41,957 nt of DNA, taken from a virus. The position numbers and the translations under genes were made by a program. The notes below the pieces were generated by a model, which searched no databases, was not told the origin of the DNA, and saw nothing but the letters and a program-made list of their open reading frames with translations. The stretch lies in IMG/VR virus record IMGVR_UViG_3300045988_159394, positions 1-41,957 of that record; one strand, given 5' to 3'. Shown here one piece after another: positions 1 to 29,384 of this stretch; within the stretch, counting starts at the first letter, position 1; each line of letters begins with the position of its first letter.

Positions 1-534
1 ACCTGGGAAGATATAGACTTCAAGAAGAATGTGGTCAAGGTATCAAAAACACTCTACAATCCGACGAATAACGCTGAAAAATATGAGCTTCTCCCTCCAA
101 AAACTGAAACGTCGGTCCGGGTCGTCACCATGCCGGCACACCTGGAAAAGGTACTGGCGGCATTCAAGTTCCAAGTCTCTAAACTCCGGATGGAATATAA
201 AGAGTTGTGGCACTATCCCAATGGCAGTAAACTGGGCTTCGTTTTTACGGCTCCGGCCCATCCTGGCCATCCTCTTACCCAGCGTCTCGTACAGACTCGT
301 ATAGACCGCATTCAGCGGCTTATGGATAATCCGGTGAGCCTTCACATACATCCTCACATTTTTCGTCATACCCATGCTTCCCTGCTGGCAGAGGCCGGGA
401 TAGACCTGGTACAAATCATGAAACGCTTAGGCCATGCCGACGATACGACGACACGACAGATATATCTGCACATCACAAAAACGCTGGCCACGGAAACGGC
501 AGAAAAGTTTGATGACCTGTTAAACAAAGCATAA
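1..534 (+). CDS. Tyrosine integrase, C-terminal part (in-frame continuation of the ORF that starts at 41194; about 392 aa in total across the circular junction)
   Basis: Position 1 is in frame with the ORF at 41194..41957 through the 119-nt terminal overlap. Catalytic boxes present: RIGEALAL, HIFRHTHASLL, LGH, RQIY. Stop TAA at 532-534. Confidence 0.9.
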   Translation, partial: TWEDIDFKKNVVKVSKTLYNPTNNAEKYELLPPKTETSVRVVTMPAHLEKVLAAFKFQVSKLRMEYKELWHYPNGSKLGFVFTAPAHPGHPLTQRLVQTRIDRIQRLMDNPVSLHIHPHIFRHTHASLLAEAGIDLVQIMKRLGHADDTTTRQIYLHITKTLATETAEKFDDLLNKA

Positions 535-2379: not shown

Positions 2380-2528
2380 TATGATTCACCACCATTTGCT
2401 TTTGTTGTTTCCTTGTTTTCGTTCTGTTCTTCTTCCGTATAGTTCACACATTTCGGGTTCTGACATGTGCCATCATCCCTCAACGGATGGGCACAGAATT
2501 TGCATCTTTTCTTTAATTTAAAAGCCAT
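2379..2528 (-). CDS. Small Cys4 zinc-ribbon protein (49 aa; XkdX-position small protein, absent from the ORF track)
   Basis: Translated by hand: MAFKLKKRCKFCAHPLRDDGTCQNPKCVNYTEEEQNENKETTKANGGES. RBS GAAGGGAG-9nt-ATG. TAATG overlaps with both neighbouring genes. Confidence 0.55.
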   Translation of the reverse strand: MAFKLKKRCKFCAHPLRDDGTCQNPKCVNYTEEEQNENKETTKANGGES

Positions 2529-3013
2529 TATTTATCACTCCCTTCTGTCGCCGCTGTAAGTTCAGCAGTGATAGCATCACTTTGCTCTTTGTAATATGCG
2601 TTCAAGTCCGAGTATTCGCTTTGAATGCCGGCAGCAGTATCAGTATCGCCGTTTAGATTTGCGACAAGCAGCGATTGCCCTAATTCTTGTTGTGCTGATG
2701 TATATTCTGCCTCAAGCGCCGCCTGCTTACTCGTTGCGATTTCTTCAGCGGTTGGTTCTGGCGGAACGTATTCTACTGGTTTTCCTGTATTTGTATCCCT
2801 TACATGCCCATTTAAATATTGAATGAAATCATCTGCCGTGATAATTTCAGCAATGGCAACATCTTTCGAGGTTGCTTTGACCTTATCAAGCAATTCTGCT
2901 TTTTTGCCCGTATTTTTTTCTTTATCCGGATTGAAATCACAAATCAAGCTGCACACTCTTTTGCCATCTTTGTCAAAACCTGCAGCGTAGTAATCGACAT
3001 TTGTACCTGTCAT
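2528..3013 (-). CDS. Hypothetical phage protein (XkdW-position, 161 aa)
   Basis: ORF track; position between the fibre region and the XkdX-like small gene in a PBSX-like layout. Confidence 0.5.
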   Translation of the reverse strand: MTGTNVDYYAAGFDKDGKRVCSLICDFNPDKEKNTGKKAELLDKVKATSKDVAIAEIITADDFIQYLNGHVRDTNTGKPVEYVPPEPTAEEIATSKQAALEAEYTSAQQELGQSLLVANLNGDTDTAAGIQSEYSDLNAYYKEQSDAITAELTAATEGSDK

Positions 3014-3031
3014 CTTTCTACCTACCCCTTT

Positions 3032-4135
3032 CTAAATTAAGTTAATGGTATAGATAAGTTCAGCCAGCGTTTTATGCGTGTACACCCGCTTTGTTATGCC
3101 GTCCTGCTGATGCCCCAATATCATTTTCACGCATACGTCATTAGCTCCGGCAGAATTTAACAGGCTGGCACATGTATGCCTTGTCTCATGCAAGGTATGC
3201 ACCAGCCCAAGCCGTTTTAGCGCTTTTTCGTACCGCTCGTGATAAGATGTATAGCTGTACTTTTTTCCGGCCCGGTTAAGCACAAATATGTTTTTATCCT
3301 GGCAACGTGTCTCCCAGAATGGCAAAACTTTTTCGGCAATCGGAACGTGACGGTTCCTGCCCGCAGCCGTTTTGCTATCCCGTACTAGAAACCATCGTTC
3401 CGGAAGATGCACGTCCACAACCTTTAGCGCCAGTAGCTCGCCAATACGGACGCCGCAGTAAATCAACATAAGGATTTCCTGAATAGCCTCATCGTCCGTA
3501 TGCCCCCAGAGAAGGTCGATTTCTTCACGGCTATACGGCCGCTTCTTGTATACCGGGATGTTCTTCCCCAGTTCTAAGTACTGTGCGTAATTTTTATCTA
3601 CGATATCAGTCTTGCAAGCGTACTCATACAGCTGATATAGCAGTGTTTTGACTTTCTTCTGGCTGGAATATGACAATCCTTTTTCTCGTACTTTGTCCAT
3701 CACCGCCTGGATTTGCTTATATCGAACATCGATGAAAGACATCCTCCAGAGGTCTGAGCAATACGCATAAGCTGACTCATAACTTGTTTTTGAACTACTG
3801 CCGATCATGGGCCATTTTTCCTGTTTCCATTCGTGATACAGCTCTTCGAATGTCGGGCCGTCGGCTTTCGACCGAACAAACTTGCCACCGTTGAGCTTAA
3901 GCAGATACCTGAACGCCTCCTCCCGTGTTTCAAAACTGCCGAGATATTTCTGCCTGCCTTCAATACTTTTGCATATCGCATATGGTTTGCGGCGGTTGCC
4001 ACCCATTTTGCGAATGCATCCAAACCCGTTAGGCAACCGCATAGCCTCACCTCCTTTTATAATTTCTTCCGCGACCATCGTAAGGTCGTCAATAATGCTA
4101 CTAATTTCGGTGCATACGATTTTCCAATTTTCCAT
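3032..4135 (-). CDS. Second tyrosine recombinase (lambda-Int-like, with an AP2-like arm-binding N-domain), nested between the lysis and tail-fibre genes
   Basis: N-terminal RLPNGFGCIRKMGGNRRKPYA...GSFETREEAFRYL (Integrase_AP2-like). Catalytic GVRIGELLAL, HETRHTCASLL, ILGH, RVYTH. RBS GGAGG-10nt-ATG; an alternative GTG start at 4141. Confidence 0.85.
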   Translation of the reverse strand: MENWKIVCTEISSIIDDLTMVAEEIIKGGEAMRLPNGFGCIRKMGGNRRKPYAICKSIEGRQKYLGSFETREEAFRYLLKLNGGKFVRSKADGPTFEELYHEWKQEKWPMIGSSSKTSYESAYAYCSDLWRMSFIDVRYKQIQAVMDKVREKGLSYSSQKKVKTLLYQLYEYACKTDIVDKNYAQYLELGKNIPVYKKRPYSREEIDLLWGHTDDEAIQEILMLIYCGVRIGELLALKVVDVHLPERWFLVRDSKTAAGRNRHVPIAEKVLPFWETRCQDKNIFVLNRAGKKYSYTSYHERYEKALKRLGLVHTLHETRHTCASLLNSAGANDVCVKMILGHQQDGITKRVYTHKTLAELIYTINLI

Positions 4136-4159
4136 AGCCACTAAGCCTCCTTCGTGGCT

Positions 4160-4394
4160 ATGCTACATCAAAAATTTTAGACAGTGGGCAAATGTAACAG
4201 CAAAGACGACGCCAACGGAAATTTCTTTACCTTTAGCCGCAACATACCTGAAGTCTGTCGGCGGCATCCAAAATGGCCCTATTACCGGGATAACCTTCTC
4301 CGTTTATTACTCTGACTCGAAGCTCTGGGCAGTATCCAGTAACTCAGATCCGGGAGCAAACATCAATGTCATAGTGATTTGCGTTAAGGCTTAA
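4160..4394 (+). pseudogene. Start-less, inverted paralogue of the 99-aa fibre-tip gene (silent cassette). It begins with a degenerate copy of the fibre 5' end.
   Basis: Plus-strand frame open to TAA at 4392-4394 with no usable start. ...KSVGGIQNGPITGITFSV... aligns with TSGGVYDAINNGITISV of the 99-aa protein. ATGCTACATCAAAAATTTTAGAC at about 4160 resembles ATGGCTACTAAATTTTTAGAT, the 5' end of 5097..5396. Confidence 0.45.
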
Positions 4395-4410
4395 ACAGTG
4401 GGGAAGATGC

Positions 4411-4611
4411 ATGAGCGAAACATTTAACGGATATTCCATTGCTTTTAATACGGAACCCATCGTAATAGGGGTGCATTACGGTACACAGACAGATGTTAAC
4501 GTCGTAGCATCAAGCGCATTGGGTACAAGCGGGCTTTTAAATTGCTATTTTTTCCACGCTAATCATGATTCTGATAAGGTATCAGTAAACTGGATAGCAA
4601 TAGGTCTATAG
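4411..4611 (+). CDS. 66-aa protein, truncated paralogue of the C-terminus of the 161-aa protein; ends ...NWIAIGL
   Basis: ORF track. The C-terminus HANHDSDKVSVNWIAIGL matches GSNSDDSMDAYWIAIGL of 4606..5091. Weak RBS. Confidence 0.45.
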   Translation: MSETFNGYSIAFNTEPIVIGVHYGTQTDVNVVASSALGTSGLLNCYFFHANHDSDKVSVNWIAIGL

Positions 4612-4627
4612 GCCAATAGCTATCCAG
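4590..4627. repeat. 38-bp imperfect palindrome with two abutting TAG stops at its centre (CTA|TAG), shared by the two convergent ORFs
   Basis: ctggatagcaataggtcta|taggccaatagctatccag. The 9-bp outer arms are perfect; 16/19 positions match overall. Confidence 0.8.
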
Positions 4628-5091
4628 TATGCATCCATGCTATCATCACTATTACTCCCGACATCGAGCGTAAAGCCCCCTAACGTGTCATTTTCCCTGG
4701 GCTTGGATTCATAAAATGCTGTTCCTTGGTGATTTGTAATAATTACTCGATACGAGGTAAACATTATTGGGAACGATACCCATCCATGAGTGCTATTTCC
4801 CCACTGTATAATTAGGCCGCCAAAAAGTGAACCAAAGCAAAGATATCCACTCGTACCAGTCAGGTATTTTACTCCGGTCGCATCCAGTACCAGCTTTACG
4901 ATTTTAGCCGCAAAAGAATCAGATGACAGTGTGCTGATCAGGCTGCCGAGCGTCGTGCTGGCCAGGGTATTCACGATGCCCTGGTTCCAGTCCGTGACCT
5001 GAGCTACTTCGGTTTCCGGATGAATGGTATCATACGATTTTGTCGTTTTATTCCAGTGATGTAAAATGCCTTTTAAAATGCTCATTTTCAT
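4606..5091 (-). CDS. 161-aa protein downstream of the 99-aa fibre paralogue (candidate fibre-tip partner or assembly chaperone); ends ...YWIAIGL
   Basis: ORF track. The likely real start is the second ATG (5083-5085), which has AGGAGGA 7 nt upstream. Confidence 0.6.
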   Translation of the reverse strand: MKMSILKGILHHWNKTTKSYDTIHPETEVAQVTDWNQGIVNTLASTTLGSLISTLSSDSFAAKIVKLVLDATGVKYLTGTSGYLCFGSLFGGLIIQWGNSTHGWVSFPIMFTSYRVIITNHQGTAFYESKPRENDTLGGFTLDVGSNSDDSMDAYWIAIGL

Positions 5092-5096
5092 TCCTC

Positions 5097-5396
5097 CTAT
5101 TCGCTGACTTCAAGCCAAAGTGTGTTCTGGTCGGTCGGCTCTGTGCCGCCGACGTACAAATCTTCTGTCGGCACTTCTATCCATGTGCTGGATCCAGCAG
5201 ATGCTTCGACGCTTATCGTGATGCCGTTATTAATCGCATCGTATACACCGCCGCTGGTGACGGGGTTGGTACTGCCAGACGTGGGCTTGCTGTCGAACGT
5301 CAATTTATCCTGCTTTGCCGCAATCAGTGTCTTAATCTTACTGACTGCATATTTCAGCCCGGCCGCATCTAAAAATTTAGTAGCCATTTCCCTCAC
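5097..5396 (-). CDS. Short tail-fibre paralogue (99 aa) sharing the N-terminus MATKFLDxxGLKY with the 312-aa fibre
   Basis: MATKFLDAAGLKY versus MATKFLDLDGLKY. The 5' DNA ATGGCTACTAAATTTTTAGAT matches the 312-aa gene's ATGGCAACGAAATTCTTAGAT. Confidence 0.65.
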   Translation of the reverse strand: MREMATKFLDAAGLKYAVSKIKTLIAAKQDKLTFDSKPTSGSTNPVTSGGVYDAINNGITISVEASAGSSTWIEVPTEDLYVGGTEPTDQNTLWLEVSE

Positions 5397-5399
5397 CGC

Positions 5400-6338
5400 C
5401 TAAGCAAAGCATGTATCAATTTCAGTCTGACTCAGCGCCGAGTAGGTGACTATGCTGGATGAATTTGCCGGCGTATATCCGAGGGCTGCTGTGACATTAG
5501 CTGACGTCAGCGAGACGACGCCGGACGACACGGTAATGTTGCTTCCAATTTTCACCCCCCCTAAAACGCTGGAAGTAGCTGCCGGCAATGTGTAGTTACT
5601 GAGCCCGGCCAGCTTATTTTTTTCGGCCGTCGTGTAGTCATTCGTGCTGAGTCCTTTGCCACTGACTTTCTTGACGTAAGTCGTCGAAATCGTGTTGCCA
5701 TCGCCATCACGGACGGCTTTATCGGCAGTGCTAACGGCGTCGTTGAGCAGGACATAGGCGGTTCCAGTCCATCTGTATACGTCCTTATCCGTACCACCGA
5801 TATCCAGATATAATGTGTTTTCTGCTCCGGTGATTTCTGTTGTATGAGCTGCTTCTTTGTAAAATTTTCCGCCGCTGTAATAGCCTTCAACCGCCTGTCC
5901 AATGTCACCTGGTATATACTGCGTCGGGATTTTGCCGTCAGATCCGAGCGGGGCAACGCCGTTTGCCGTACCGATGAGCGATGTAGCGATACGTGCTGTG
6001 CTATCCGTAGCGTGAATAGTAATGTTTGCCGAGCCATCAAAACTAACCCCGTTGATAGTCCGTGCTGTTGCCAGCTTTGCCGCCGTATCGGCTGCACCGG
6101 CAGTCGATGCTTTTGCGCCGATTCCAAGGTAGGTTTTTGCCGCATCTGTTTTAGTCAAATAGATACTCGTTGCATCGGTTTTACTCAACTTCGTATTATC
6201 ATTAATCGTGATACCCGTTTTATTGAGTGCGACGCCGTTAATTGTAATGCCCTGGGGTACATATTTTCCGTCGTTCGCCGCATCCATTTTATTTTTAAAA
6301 TATTTCAGGCCGTCGAGATCTAAGAATTTCGTTGCCAT
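5400..6338 (-). CDS. Tail fibre protein (312 aa) with KGLSTNDYT-type repeat
   Basis: Repeats LSKTDATSIYLTKTDAAKTYL and GLSTNDYTTAEKNKL typical of Firmicute prophage fibres; located in the tail module. Confidence 0.7.
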   Translation of the reverse strand: MATKFLDLDGLKYFKNKMDAANDGKYVPQGITINGVALNKTGITINDNTKLSKTDATSIYLTKTDAAKTYLGIGAKASTAGAADTAAKLATARTINGVSFDGSANITIHATDSTARIATSLIGTANGVAPLGSDGKIPTQYIPGDIGQAVEGYYSGGKFYKEAAHTTEITGAENTLYLDIGGTDKDVYRWTGTAYVLLNDAVSTADKAVRDGDGNTISTTYVKKVSGKGLSTNDYTTAEKNKLAGLSNYTLPAATSSVLGGVKIGSNITVSSGVVSLTSANVTAALGYTPANSSSIVTYSALSQTEIDTCFA

Positions 6339-6347
6339 ATTTTCCTC

Positions 6348-6656
6348 CTAAAAAATCGCATCAATATCCATATTTAAGATTGTATCTGCCAATGCGTCTT
6401 TTCCAGCCGGCCCTTGTGGGCCGACTGGTCCTTGTGGCCCAGTATCTCCCTTCGGACCTTTTATATCCACCGGGGCTGGATTATCCCGGCCGCCGTCATT
6501 GGTCCAAGATAATATGCCGTCATCCGTGATGTGTGGCGTATAGACTGTCCCTTTAGCCCCGGCCATGCCTACACCTACGGTTAGGGTATTCCCAGCGCTC
6601 AGACAAGCGGACAACGCAGGCGACCGTGCTGTAAGCACAGCCTGTAGTTTATTCAT
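6348..6656 (-). CDS. Collagen-like (G-X-Y) repeat protein, about 102 aa
   Basis: GPKGDTGPQGPVGPQGPAGK. Start placed at MNKLQ, preceded by AGGAGGTGG. The ORF track's longer frame is 6348..6830. Confidence 0.6.
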   Translation of the reverse strand: MNKLQAVLTARSPALSACLSAGNTLTVGVGMAGAKGTVYTPHITDDGILSWTNDGGRDNPAPVDIKGPKGDTGPQGPVGPQGPAGKDALADTILNMDIDAIF

Positions 6657-25058: not shown

Positions 25059-25506
25059 CAGTGTTCGTATTCAGATCCGCGACTTCCGCCTTGAGTTTTT
25101 GATTACGGAGTTCCTGTTCTTCCTGTGCCGGCTTAGTCGGATACCGCTTCAACAGCAATTCTGCCGCCTTCAGCCGGTCGCGTGCGCTTATCTGCTTTTC
25201 CATGATGCGGGCTCTGGAACATCCATCATCACAGCCTTCCACTACAATACACTCTTCCTGTATCTCGCCGCGCATGGCTGCCGTCAAATGCTGCATCACT
25301 TCTTCAGGCGTCGCTGTCTTAGCGGCTTCCATAGCATCCAGTCGTTCCTGGATAGCCTTTTGGATTTGAGGTTTTCTTAGGTTCTCTGCTCCTGTCGCAT
25401 ATGCCGTTTTTTCACTGTATCCGGCCCTTTTAGCGGCTTCTGTAGCATTAGCCGTCTCGATATAAGCATCAATGAATCTGCGCTGTTTTAACGTCAATTT
25501 AGCCAT
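25003..25506 (-). CDS. Terminase small subunit (Terminase_2 / P27 family)
   Basis: MAKLTLKQRRFIDAYIETANATEAAKRAGYSEKTAYATGAENLRKPQIQKAI. Confidence 0.8.
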   Translation of the reverse strand: MAKLTLKQRRFIDAYIETANATEAAKRAGYSEKTAYATGAENLRKPQIQKAIQERLDAMEAAKTATPEEVMQHLTAAMRGEIQEECIVVEGCDDGCSRARIMEKQISARDRLKAAELLLKRYPTKPAQEEQELRNQKLKAEVADLNTNTDEEAVVFEFSRNPKTEEN

Positions 25507-25621: not shown

Positions 25622-25798
25622 TGCATCAAGTTCACTACGCAATAATATTTATTCATTTTTGTAATTTGACTAACTAGCCAGCATGATGTATATTAAAGTT
25701 GACTTATGTTTAGTCCACAGAATATTGCTGAATGACGTCGCGAATCATTTAGCCAAGGACAAAATAATTATTAGTCCTCGTCTGTTGTGTGTCACGGG

Positions 25799-25830
25799 AA
25801 AAGGCTCTAGATATATCTAGAGCCTTTTTT
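25799..25830. terminator. Bidirectional rho-independent terminator (perfect 22-bp palindrome flanked by an A-run and a T-run)
   Basis: aaaaGGCTCTAGATATATCTAGAGCCtttttt. Confidence 0.7.
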
Positions 25831-25845
25831 CGTGTCCACAAGATA

Positions 25846-29160: not shown

Positions 29161-29384
29161 GGGGAAATAGTACGTTAAAAGAAAATGGTGGCTTTCAGCA
29201 CCATTTTTTTAGTACTATTTTCCCCAGAACCCACACGGATTTTATGCAGAAGGAAATTCCTTATATATATAACGATTTTCCTTCCCTTTTTCCCTTTTTT
29301 TATACGGAAATTCGTACCATTTTCCGTATAATTATTTATCGTTATGCATAATAGGGAAATCGGGAAATTGGTACGTTTTTCCCT
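29161..29384. promoter_or_regulatory. Putative replication origin / iteron region: about four copies of GGAAAT-nn-GTAC plus nested palindromes, including a bidirectional terminator hairpin
   Basis: gggaaatagtacg (29162), its inverted copy agtactattttcccc (29211), cggaaattcgtacc (29307), gggaaattggtacg (29358). Hairpin aaaatggtg-gctttcag-caccatttt flanked by T-runs. Lies directly 3' of the primase-helicase gene. Confidence 0.4.

What the first reader, a model, noticed from the sequence alone, without database searches (positions are those of the whole stretch)
4590..4627. Two convergent ORFs end in the same peptide (…WIAIGL) inside a 38-bp palindrome with abutting TAG stops
The palindrome ctggatagcaataggtcta|taggccaatagctatccag places the stop of 4411..4611 (TAG 4609-4611) and the stop of 4606..5091 (TAG = complement of 4606-4608) back to back at its dyad. 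Both proteins therefore finish with an identical palindrome-encoded hexapeptide. Their homology extends about 15 aa further upstream (HDSDKVSVN versus SDDSMDAY), so this is duplication plus a symmetric DNA element, not coincidence alone. No U-tract follows on either side, so it is not a classical intrinsic terminator. It could be a recombinase core site (arms plus spacer), a protein-binding dyad, or the symmetric centre of a former invertible segment.
Basis: seen in the sequence. Interest (0 to 1): 0.6.

Follow-up and report, generated by a model that had tools for sequence, protein, structure and literature searches.

The report
Tail-fibre shufflon junction, not a DNA element
The palindrome is where two alternative tail-fibre tips meet tail to tail inside a DNA segment that a neighbouring recombinase probably flips to change the phage's host-binding tip, a known kind of host-range switch not yet described for phages of Megasphaera.

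Summary
In detail: an imperfect 40-bp palindrome (17/20) at 4589-4628, abutting TAG stops, and both ORFs ending in WIAIGL. The palindrome is a by-product, not a DNA element. All three mismatches fall at synonymous codon positions. WIAIG is the consensus last strand of the Gp53-like_C tail-fibre tip domain. Several related phages lack a long palindrome at the equivalent junction.

The functional repeats are three copies of a 15-nt site, TTAnACAGTGGGnAA, at 4177(+), 4391(+) and 4797(-). Each encodes xQW at the start of a tip domain. The 66-aa ORF is part of a promoterless C-terminal cassette. A second silent cassette lies at 4176-4394. A tyrosine recombinase gene (3032-4141) sits next to them.

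Both silent cassettes appear elsewhere as expressed C-termini fused exactly at QW. One metagenome contig carries the 4391-4811 segment flipped relative to its flanks. Two Megasphaera hexanoica assemblies differ by a precise deletion between two sites. Relatives in the genera found (Megasphaera, Allisonella, Acidaminococcus) carry 1 to at least 17 cassettes.

This is a multiple-inversion host-range switch of the Rin shufflon kind. The palindrome marks the only junction in the array without a crossover site. Flipping in this phage itself has not been shown.

The parts
4589..4628 (.). Imperfect palindrome (17/20). It is the tail-to-tail junction of silent cassette 2 and the expressed cassette 3, with 6 nt of overlap (CTATAG). 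It is the only junction in the array without a crossover site.
   Evidence: existence and significance; not conserved as a dyad in relatives; WIAIG is the family consensus ending
4606..5091 (-). Expressed short tail-fibre / receptor-binding protein gene. It is 161 aa from the first ATG; gene callers use the ATG at 5085, giving 159 aa (P0001).
   Evidence: PF21882 at aa 91-160; it lies after the Baseplate_J, Mu Gp48 and tail-fibre genes; the fold matches R-pyocin fibre foot structures and AP22 gp53
4812..5091 (-). Constant N-terminal coding part (aa 1-93) that every cassette would be fused to.
   Evidence: the N-terminus is conserved and ends in invariant I94 Q96 W97, while the C-termini are unrelated
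4797..4811 (-). Crossover site in the expressed gene, TTATACAGTGGGGAA, encoding I-I-Q-W-G.
4606..4811 (-). Cassette 3, the currently expressed C-terminal tip domain (IIQWGNST...AYWIAIGL*).
4391..4405 (+). Crossover site of cassette 2, TTAAACAGTGGGGAA. It contains the TAA stop of cassette 1.
4390..4611 (+). Silent cassette 2 (LKQWGRCMSETF...VNWIAIGL*).
   Evidence: expressed elsewhere as residues 94-164 of P0121-P0125 and as the C-termini of P0128 and P0136 (93-96% identity); expressed in L022 and L024
4177..4191 (+). Crossover site of cassette 1, TTAGACAGTGGGCAA.
4176..4394 (+). Silent cassette 1 (FRQWANVTAK...VIVICVKA*).
   Evidence: 100% identical over 70 aa to the expressed C-terminus of P0109; hybrid site in L005, L006, L007 and L025
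4391..4811 (.). Inner invertible segment (cassettes 2 and 3 between inverted sites). Flipping it would express cassette 2.
   Evidence: L024 4362-4783 aligns to window 4391-4812 in one orientation (92.9%), while the flank L024 2080-4376 aligns to window 7089-4797 in the other
4177..4811 (.). Outer invertible segment (cassettes 1, 2 and 3). Flipping it would express cassette 1.
   Evidence: cassette 1 is found in the opposite orientation, fused to the constant part, in L005 and L025
3032..4141 (-). Tyrosine recombinase, the putative invertase. It is distinct from the partial integrase at 31..534.
   Evidence: (PF00589, E 2.8e-20); a recombinase lies next to the array and in 9 of 16 loci
4133..4162 (-). 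Conserved hairpin over the recombinase ribosome-binding site and start codon.
   Evidence: I10; present in L001-L004 with a compensatory change

Best explanation
The window carries a prophage of a Megasphaera-type (Negativicutes) host. Its short tail-fibre gene (4606..5091, minus strand) has two parts. One is a constant N-terminal part. The other is an exchangeable C-terminal receptor-binding tip, a Gp53-like / R-pyocin 'foot' domain.

Two further promoterless tip cassettes lie downstream in the opposite orientation, at 4390-4611 and 4176-4394. Each cassette, and the expressed gene, starts with the same 15-nt site, TTAnACAGTGGGnAA, in the same codon phase (..CAG TGG = QW).

I infer that the adjacent tyrosine recombinase (3032-4141) pairs the site in the expressed gene with one of the two inverted sites. 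It would exchange strands within ACAGTGGG and flip the DNA in between. This would fuse the constant part in frame to cassette 2 or cassette 1, giving three alternative tips.

The palindrome is the junction where cassette 2 and cassette 3 meet tail to tail. Both end in the family-consensus last beta strand WIAIG, followed by Leu and TAG. They overlap by CTATAG, so the DNA reads as an inverted repeat. This is the one junction in the array with no crossover site, so the two cassettes always flip as a pair and the dyad sits near the centre of the inner invertible segment.

What is shown and what is inferred:
- Shown: the sites, cassettes and domains; the silent cassettes are used as expressed C-termini in relatives; related loci are in the flipped or deleted state with breakpoints inside the site.
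- Inferred: this recombinase does the flipping, flipping still happens in this phage, and the tips differ in receptor specificity.
For: Sites:
- There are three copies of the site, where 0.03 are expected by chance.
- Across 76 cassette starts in 40 loci, the Q codon is always CAG and the preceding base is always A, although the preceding residue varies among 9 amino acids. Window genes use CAG 47 times and CAA 12 times. This is a constraint at the DNA level.

Domain:
- PF21882 matches the expressed C-terminus and cassette 2.
- The model has pLDDT 84-94 over the C-terminal domain. Strand 94-100 is IIQWGNS and strand 154-160 is YWIAIGL.
- The best fold matches are R2 and R1 pyocin fibre tips and AP22 gp53.

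Cassettes are real alternative ends:
- Cassette 1 is 100% identical over 70 aa to the C-terminus of P0109.
- Cassette 2 is 93-96% identical to the C-termini of P0121-P0125, P0128 and P0136, fused at IIQWG|RCMSETF.
- Many protein pairs share a 100% identical N-terminus but have unrelated C-termini.

Recombination products:
- L024 carries the 422-bp segment inverted relative to its flanks.
- The hybrid site AATTATACAGTGGG|CAAATG occurs in L005 and L025.
- M. hexanoica CP171361 and CP011940 have 100% and 99.96% identical flanks and a precise 1577-bp deletion between direct sites.
- Arrays have mixed orientation and contain 1 to at least 17 cassettes. A tyrosine recombinase was detected within the fetched flanks in 9 of 16 genome loci and in every other locus whose flank reached that far.

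Palindrome as a by-product:
- The mismatches are all at third codon positions.
- There is no compensatory change in L024, and the palindrome is absent in L022.
- Other junctions score 8-14/20, apart from one case, L030, where both cassettes end in WIAICK.
- WIAIG ends 42 of 120 homologues and WIAIGL ends 12 of 120.
Against: - No alternative state of this particular phage was found. All 10 contigs examined that carry P0001 have the window's arrangement.
- The exact predicted chimeras are not in the protein collection.
- The inversion evidence compares related phages, not identical ones: the segment is 93% identical and the flanks 80%.
- Recombinase activity and receptor specificity are untested.
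- The palindrome does fold into a stable RNA hairpin: -27.9 kcal/mol (z -4.9) on the + strand and -23.5 (z -2.5) on the mRNA strand. A secondary role is therefore not excluded.
- The M. hexanoica deletion could be an assembly collapse.
Confidence: 0.85

Rival explanations
1. The palindrome is itself a functional DNA site. It could be a recombinase core site (two arms around a spacer) or a dyad bound by a regulator or an architectural protein that helps synapsis of the short (about 420 bp) invertible segment.
For: - The dyad is far beyond chance for random DNA.
- It sits within 7.5 bp of the segment midpoint.
- It is retained in L024.
- Shorter palindromes recur at many related tail-to-tail junctions, and L030 has a 30-bp perfect one.
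Against: - All mismatches are at synonymous positions, and a further synonymous change in L024 is uncompensated.
- Breakpoints of all recombinant forms lie in ACAGTGGG, not here.
- CTGGATAGC has only one other copy in the window, at 25348, unrelated to this locus.
- L022 carries cassette 2 without the palindrome, and junctions in L001, L004, L034, L026 A/B, L002 and L003 have only background symmetry.
- The recurring short palindromes are explained by antisense overlap of the conserved ..AI(G/C)(K/R)* ends.
Confidence: 0.04
2. The palindrome acts at the RNA level. It would be a 3' stem-loop that ends or stabilises the tail-fibre mRNA, or blocks antisense read-through into the silent cassettes.
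For: - The predicted hairpins are stable on both strands.
- The stem sits exactly at the stop codon of the expressed gene.
Against: - There is no U tract and no terminator call. A genuine bidirectional terminator in the same window, at 25794-25833, has A and T tracts.
- The recombinase, holin and amidase genes lie downstream on the same strand with little intergenic space. Efficient termination here would cut off the lysis genes.
- The hairpin is absent from most relatives.
Confidence: 0.07
3. The locus is a fossil. The cassettes are remnants of past rearrangement or of horizontal patchwork, the recombinase no longer flips them, and the state in this phage is fixed.
For: - Every contig of this phage examined is in the same state.
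- No chimeric proteins with this N-terminus are on record.
Against: - Both silent cassettes are uninterrupted and in phase.
- The sites are intact.
- The recombinase is full length. The canonical catalytic positions (GVRIGE, SKT, HETRH, LGH, VYTH) are readable.
- Its start-codon hairpin is conserved with a compensatory change.
- Assemblies report only the majority orientation, so uniform contigs are a weak argument.
Confidence: 0.12
4. The 66-aa ORF 4411..4611 is an independent small gene. It could be, for example, a tail-fibre assembly protein like Mu U/U', convergent with the tail-fibre gene.
For: - Gene callers annotate it in some contigs.
- It has an ATG preceded by GGGGAAG.
Against: - Homology to the tip domain begins 7 codons upstream of the ATG, at QWG, within the recombination site.
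- The same sequence is the fused C-terminus of at least 7 full-length proteins.
- The purine-rich stretch is part of the conserved site.
Confidence: 0.03

Closest known systems
Rin shufflon of Bifidobacterium breve/longum prophages (Mavrich et al. 2018, PMC6109161), also reported in Eggerthella lenta prophages (PMC8778435)
   Same: - A tyrosine recombinase gene sits next to the array.
- There is a constant N-terminal receptor-binding-protein part (Rc) and several small promoterless C-terminal cassettes (Rv).
- A short asymmetric repeat lies at the 5' end of each cassette and inside the expressed gene.
- Cassettes are highly dissimilar to each other.
- Evidence comes from inversions between related prophages.
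   Different: - The host phylum differs: Negativicutes rather than Actinobacteria.
- The tail apparatus here is of the contractile-tail type (Baseplate_J, Mu Gp48 / P2 I).
- The cassette fold is gp53 / R-pyocin foot rather than the TP901-1 RBP head.
- The site is the 15-nt TTAnACAGTGGGnAA rather than the 11-bp TTCCCTAACCC.
- The recombinase is 369 aa with about 95 unassigned N-terminal residues, whereas Rin is described as armless.
- Arrays reach at least 17 cassettes.
- Sequence relatedness of the two recombinases was not tested.
- In-population flipping was shown for Rin (virion reads) but not here.
Gin (Mu), Cin (P1) and Min (p15B) tail-fibre inversion systems, and the Gin-dependent FRphi tail-fibre shufflon of Enterobacter (PMC13418256)
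   Same: - Site-specific inversion swaps the C-terminal part of a tail-fibre protein to change host range.
- The invertible segment holds convergent alternative ends that meet tail to tail in the middle.
- Min and FRphi have multiple cassettes.
   Different: - Those systems use serine invertases with an enhancer and Fis. Here the neighbouring recombinase is a tyrosine recombinase (PF00589).
- There are no separate U/U'-type assembly genes inside the segment.
R64 / IncI plasmid shufflon (Rci recombinase, sfx sites, PilV C-termini)
   Same: - It is a tyrosine-recombinase multiple-inversion system that exchanges C-terminal adhesin segments.
- The sites have one well-conserved half and one variable half. 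Here only the constant-gene site has a conserved left half.
   Different: - The target there is a conjugative pilus adhesin, not a phage fibre.
- The site sequence is unrelated.
- The NCBIfam matches of the recombinase here were generic Xer and integron-integrase models, all far below their cut-offs.
- From my own knowledge, Rci is reported to avoid deletions. Here a precise deletion between direct sites is seen in M. hexanoica.
Rho-independent (intrinsic) terminator
   Same: A stable GC-containing stem-loop lies immediately after a stop codon.
   Different: There is no U tract on either strand, the consensus scan does not call it, and essential late genes follow on the same strand.

Membership tests
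Tyrosine-recombinase tail-fibre shufflon (Rin-type multiple inversion system) | A tyrosine recombinase gene lies directly beside the cassette array, separate from the prophage integrase. | tested here: met
   PF00589 at E 2.8e-20 for 3032..4141. A second, partial integrase lies at 31..534. The adjacency is seen in relatives and in 9 of 16 loci.
Tyrosine-recombinase tail-fibre shufflon (Rin-type multiple inversion system) | One expressed gene has a constant N-terminal part, and there are several promoterless alternative C-terminal cassettes. | tested here: met
   Three cassettes in the window. N-termini are identical or conserved while C-termini are unrelated. Silent cassettes are found fused in relatives.
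Tyrosine-recombinase tail-fibre shufflon (Rin-type multiple inversion system) | A short repeated crossover site lies in the expressed gene and at the 5' end of each cassette, in the same reading phase, with silent cassettes in inverted orientation. | tested here: met
   Three sites are found where 0.03 are expected, two on + and one on -. Consensus. DNA-level invariance across 76 sites.
Tyrosine-recombinase tail-fibre shufflon (Rin-type multiple inversion system) | Alternative arrangements exist whose breakpoints fall in the sites. | tested here: met
   This holds between related phages or strains: inversion in L024, hybrid sites in L005 and L025, and a precise deletion in M. hexanoica.
Tyrosine-recombinase tail-fibre shufflon (Rin-type multiple inversion system) | Flipping occurs within one population of this same phage. 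| tested here: inconclusive
   10 of 10 contigs carrying P0001 are in the same state. The exact chimeras are absent from the protein collection.
Tyrosine-recombinase tail-fibre shufflon (Rin-type multiple inversion system) | The recombinase is homologous to Rin, and the cassettes have the TP901-1-like RBP head fold described for Rin. | tested here: not met
   The cassette fold is gp53 / R-pyocin foot, not the TP901-1 head. Recombinase-to-Rin similarity was not tested because no Rin sequence was held. This is the same kind of system, not the same gene family.
Serine-invertase tail-fibre switches (Gin/Cin/Min/Pin) | A serine recombinase (resolvase/invertase family) sits next to the invertible segment. 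| tested here: not met
   The adjacent recombinase is PF00589, tyrosine type.
R64-type shufflon (Rci/sfx) | An Rci-family recombinase and the 19-bp sfx repeat are present. | not tested
   The NCBIfam matches were generic Xer and integron-integrase models, all far below their cut-offs. Whether the library holds an Rci model was not checked. The site here was not aligned to sfx.
Intrinsic terminator | A GC-rich hairpin is followed by a U tract. | tested here: not met
   The hairpin is present. There is no U tract and no call in the scan.
Recombinase core site at the palindrome | Dyad arms are conserved at the DNA level, and recombinant breakpoints fall inside the dyad. | tested here: not met
   Mismatches are at synonymous positions, with no compensation. 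Breakpoints lie elsewhere. The dyad is absent in L022 and in several relatives.

The most novel reading that the evidence does not exclude
The conserved site may also work as an integron-like docking point through which tip cassettes, or inseparable tail-to-tail cassette pairs, move between different phages.

Three observations point this way:
- Cassette 1 is 98.7% identical in DNA between phages whose flanking tail-fibre DNA is only 74-80% identical.
- The cassette 2 + 3 pair is 92.9% identical against 79.8% for the flank.
- In L022 the homology to the window starts exactly at the site and ends 5 nt after the cassette stop, while the constant part does not align at all.

The precise deletion between direct sites in M. 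hexanoica shows the kind of reaction that could release a cassette circle. Arrays of 1 to at least 17 cassettes would then reflect gain and loss as well as shuffling. A lesser variant of this idea is that the central palindrome helps the short segment bend for synapsis.
Probability: 0.3. Interest if true: 0.6.

Novelty: new member of a known kind. Interest (0 to 1): 0.4.

Why it matters
The palindrome itself is ordinary. It is what two convergent copies of a conserved protein end look like in DNA.

It does, however, point to a large set of host-range switches that my literature searches did not find described. About 1000 homologous tail-fibre proteins turned up. The loci are in prophages of gut and rumen Negativicutes: Megasphaera, Allisonella and Acidaminococcus. 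The searches found no paper on it for these hosts.

If the system is active, three things follow:
- One prophage can release particles with several receptor specificities.
- Short-read assemblies and gene callers will mis-annotate the silent cassettes as small genes.
- The compact 15-nt site plus its recombinase could be useful for engineering switchable phage tips.

It would also extend tyrosine-recombinase tail-fibre shufflons beyond the Actinobacteria prophages in which the papers found here describe them.

Tried and rejected
- blastn of 3000-6400 against deposited phages gave no match. tblastn of the tail-fibre protein against the same collection gave no match. The recombinase is at most 40% identical to anything there, mostly integrases.
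- A recombinase search in one-genome-per-species contigs found nothing by exact peptide words. The later search with the protein alignment did work.
- An exact look-up of the four predicted chimeric proteins of this phage found none in the collection.
- I looked for the same phage in two states among proteins with identical N-termini. P0053 and P0096 turned out to carry different cassette sets, so they are not a flip pair. P0108 matches none of the M. hexanoica cassettes.
- Pfam gave no hit for cassette 1. BLASTP found no similarity between cassettes 1 and 3. Cassette 1 is assigned as a tip only from its position, its site, and its use as a C-terminus in P0109.
- The N-terminal ~95 residues of the recombinase have no Pfam arm-binding domain; only a weak Phage_int_M match appears at residues 98-188. 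A weak PHROG match to an HNH-endonuclease family at residues 51-78 is not enough to claim one.
- Sequence search of the tail-fibre protein against PDB sequences gave nothing useful. The fold search was needed.
- The terminator, recombinase-core-site and independent-gene readings are rejected for the reasons given under rival explanations.
Full report
**1. The observation**

The sequence at 4589-4628 is ACTGGATAGCAATAGGTCTA|TAGGCCAATAGCTATCCAGT. It has two 20-nt arms, no spacer and 17/20 complementarity. The + ORF 4411..4611 stops at TAG 4609-4611. The - ORF 4606..5091 stops at the complement of 4606-4608. Both end in WIAIGL.

In 200 first-order Markov simulations of the window, no zero-spacer dyad reached 17/20. 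The real window has two: this one, and one centred at 25813. The second is a textbook bidirectional terminator with flanking A and T tracts.

The three mismatches are GCA/GCT (Ala), ATA/ATT (Ile) and GGT/GGC (Gly). All are third-codon positions. The Leu codon CTA is forced, because it is the complement of the other ORF's TAG. Of the four free synonymous positions, only one matches. This is what conservation of the peptide alone predicts, not selection on DNA symmetry.

**2. What surrounds it**

The repeat search found, besides the palindrome, a 15-17-nt sequence present three times: 4177-4193 (+), 4391-4405 (+) and 4795-4811 (inverted). The pattern TTAnACAGTGGGnAA has exactly these three matches in 42 kb, where 0.03 are expected.

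Each copy encodes x-Q-W in the same phase:
- In the expressed 161-aa gene it encodes I-I-Q-W-G, at the start of a Pfam Gp53-like_C domain (aa 91-160, E 3.8e-8).
- On the + strand the frame of the 66-aa ORF is open from 4390 (LKQWGRCMSETF...), seven codons before its ATG. That 73-aa stretch also matches Gp53-like_C over profile positions 9-83 (E 1.2e-3).
- A third open stretch, FRQWANVT...VIVICVKA*, runs 4176-4394 in another frame. Its TAA stop lies inside the next site.

Immediately beyond, at 3032..4141 (-), is a 369-aa tyrosine recombinase (PF00589, E 2.8e-20; Xer-like). It is separate from the partial integrase at the window start (31..534).

The gene order in an identical contig is: Baseplate_J, Mu Gp48, tail fibre..., this gene, recombinase, holin, amidase. 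The locus is therefore the distal tail-fibre module of a prophage with a baseplate of the contractile-tail type.

**3. The silent cassettes are genuine alternative C-termini**

A search with the 161-aa protein found 982 homologues. The named hits are from Megasphaera.

Cassette 1 is 100% identical over 70 aa to residues 94-163 of the full-length protein P0109, whose N-terminus is only 82% identical to ours. A search with the predicted chimera (constant part + cassette 2) found P0121-P0125. All are 164 aa, the predicted chimera length. Their residues 94-164 are 93-96% identical to cassette 2 and are fused at IIQWG|RCMSETF, while their N-termini are only 60-77% identical.

Among the first 120 homologues, many pairs have 100% identical N-terminal 95 residues and unrelated C-termini. 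In a 67-sequence alignment, I94, Q96 and W97 are invariant, and the sequence after them has almost no consensus until the terminal WIAIG.

**4. Recombination products**

- *Inversion.* The degenerate junction pattern for 'constant part + cassette 1 or 2' found four metagenome contigs. In L024 the constant part is fused to cassette 2, and a cassette-3 orthologue is silent and inverted. L024 4362-4783 aligns to window 4391-4812 in the same orientation (92.9%). The flank L024 2080-4376 aligns to window 7089-4797 in the opposite orientation (79.8%). This is the inversion of exactly the segment bounded by the two inverted sites.
- *Hybrid sites.* L005, L006, L007 and L025 carry AATTATACAGTGGG|CAAATG. 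The left half is the constant-gene type and the right half is that of cassette 1. Further cassettes follow in direct orientation, as expected after an outer inversion.
- *Deletion.* Two M. hexanoica chromosomes (CP171361, strain MH, and CP011940) are 100% and 99.96% identical in the flanks. They differ by a precise 1577-bp deletion between the constant-gene site and a directly oriented cassette site, sharing the 15-nt overlap.

Combining the hybrids places strand exchange inside ACAGTGGG. From general knowledge, this is a typical overlap length for tyrosine recombinases.

Across 76 cassette starts in 40 loci, the Q codon is always CAG and the preceding base is always A. The preceding residue varies among nine amino acids, and the window's genes use CAG 47 times and CAA 12 times. 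This is a DNA-level constraint, not just a protein motif. The constant-gene copy also has an invariant left half (CTAATTATA), whereas the left halves of silent copies vary and usually contain the previous cassette's stop.

**5. Distribution**

Relatives occur in Megasphaera hexanoica, elsdenii, paucivorans, cerevisiae and sueciensis, in Allisonella and in Acidaminococcus. They carry 1 to at least 17 cassettes in mixed orientation. A tyrosine recombinase was detected within the fetched flanks in 9 of 16 loci. Four IMG/VR contigs with an 88-92% identical recombinase have the same layout but entirely different cassettes.

**6. What the variable part is**

The AlphaFold model is confident over the C-terminal domain (pLDDT 84-94). 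IIQWGNS forms the strand at 94-100 and YWIAIGL forms the last strand, 154-160. The best structural matches are the C-terminal 'foot' of R2 and R1 pyocin fibres and tail fibre gp53 of Acinetobacter phage AP22. From general knowledge, these are receptor-binding tips. The recombination site is thus encoded in the domain's first conserved strand, and the palindromic peptide in its last.

**7. Why there is a palindrome**

All crossover sites lie at cassette 5' ends. A tail-to-tail junction therefore has none, and the two cassettes flanking it can never be separated by the recombinase. They flip as a pair. Indeed, cassettes 2 and 3 travel together in L024.

WIAIG is the family's consensus ending: 42 of 120 homologues end in WIAIG and 12 of 120 in WIAIGL. 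Two convergent cassettes that both end in WIAIGL and overlap by CTATAG necessarily read as an inverted repeat.

Tests of a DNA-level role are negative:
- The L024 orthologue has one more synonymous change (ATT to ATC) with no compensation.
- In L022, cassette 2 abuts a different cassette (..YIAVGK*) and the dyad is gone.
- Other junctions score 8-14/20, with one exception: L030, where both ends are WIAICK and a perfect 30-bp palindrome results.

Many junctions overlap by 14 nt, so that ..IGK* on one strand is ..ICR* on the other, or ICK*/ICK*, or IGR*/IGR*. This explains the recurring short palindromes and the odd Cys-containing endings.

At the RNA level the region folds stably. However, it lacks a U tract and is not called as a terminator. 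The recombinase and lysis genes follow on the same strand.

**8. Comparison with known systems**

The architecture is that of a shufflon acting on a phage receptor-binding protein. The closest described case is the Rin shufflon of Bifidobacterium prophages (PMC6109161), also reported in Eggerthella lenta prophages (PMC8778435). That system has a tyrosine recombinase, a constant Rc part, Rv cassettes and 11-bp rix repeats.

The serine-invertase systems Gin, Cin and Min, and the FRphi shufflon (PMC13418256), are functional analogues. The present locus differs from Rin in host phylum, tail type, cassette fold, site sequence, recombinase length and array size. Homology of the two recombinases was not tested.

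Literature searches found nothing on such a system in Megasphaera or other Negativicutes.

**9. Verdict**

The interpretation as a symmetric DNA element is not supported. The option 'centre of an invertible segment' is right.

The interesting object is the shufflon, a new member of a known kind. Its activity in this particular phage remains inferred, because all contigs of this phage that I examined are in one state.

One thing not excluded is cassette exchange between phages. Cassettes are far more similar between phages than their flanks are, which hints at integron-like exchange through the site.

Noticed in passing
window 4133-4162 (minus-strand mRNA); L001-L004 just upstream of the recombinase start: A conserved hairpin, CCAUAGCCAC-GAAGGAGGCUUA-GUGGCUAUGG, places the Shine-Dalgarno sequence in the loop and the GUG/AUG start in the 3' arm of the recombinase mRNA. 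Relatives keep it through a compensatory change (CAC/GUG to CAUU/AAUG). It probably keeps recombinase translation low.
   Followed up: partly
L018/L026 (M. hexanoica CP171361.1) versus L019 (CP011940.1): Two assemblies labelled M. hexanoica have isogenic flanks. One has 9 cassettes in mixed orientation. The other has 2, through a precise 1577-bp deletion between directly oriented sites. The recombinase (or the assembler) can therefore delete as well as invert.
   Followed up: yes
L030 4774-8561 (Megasphaera sp. WILCCON 0056): This array has at least 17 tip cassettes, 5 direct and 12 inverted, in under 4 kb. It is by far the largest seen. Its tail-to-tail junction is a perfect 30-bp palindrome, with both ends WIAICK*.
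   Followed up: partly
Tail-to-tail junctions in L002, L003, L018/L026 H-I, L030, L031, L037, L039, L041: There is a recurrent 14-nt antisense overlap of the two cassette ends. ATCGGCAAAT reads IGK one way and ICR the other. ATTTGCAAAT reads ICK both ways. ATCGGCCGAT reads IGR both ways. This may explain why Cys replaces the conserved Gly in some cassette endings.
   Followed up: partly
window 4177-4408 versus L005/L025; window 4391-4812 versus L024; window 4391-4616 versus L022: Cassettes are much more similar between phages (93-99% nt) than the adjacent constant tail-fibre DNA (74-80%, or not alignable). The homology boundaries fall at the site and just after the cassette stop. This suggests cassettes are exchanged as modules.
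   Followed up: partly
L024 4969-5171 (contig end): The last, inverted cassette of this contig has a site whose left half is the constant-gene type (TAATTATA) rather than a silent-cassette type, and the contig ends there. It may be an assembly trace of mixed orientations in the sample.
   Followed up: no
window 25794-25833: The sequence GGGAAAAGGCTCTAGATA|TATCTAGAGCCTTTTTTCG is an 18/20 palindrome with flanking A and T tracts in an intergenic gap. It looks like a classical bidirectional intrinsic terminator and is a useful contrast to the palindrome under study.
   Followed up: partly
window ~29246-29286: Another zero-spacer dyad scores 16/20, centred at 29266. I did not examine it.
   Followed up: no
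window 5349-5387 and 6300-6338: This direct repeat (79%) corresponds to the shared N-termini (MATKFLD..GLKY) of the two fibre-like genes 5097..5396 and 5400..6338, upstream of the switchable gene. They may be paralogous fibre shaft or adaptor proteins.
   Followed up: no
window 2528..3013 (-): A 161-aa protein of unknown function (phrog_32639) lies between the recombinase and the holin. A gene of similar size sits in the same position in related loci (L008-L010, L018-L021). I did not test whether it is linked to the shufflon or to lysis.
   Followed up: no
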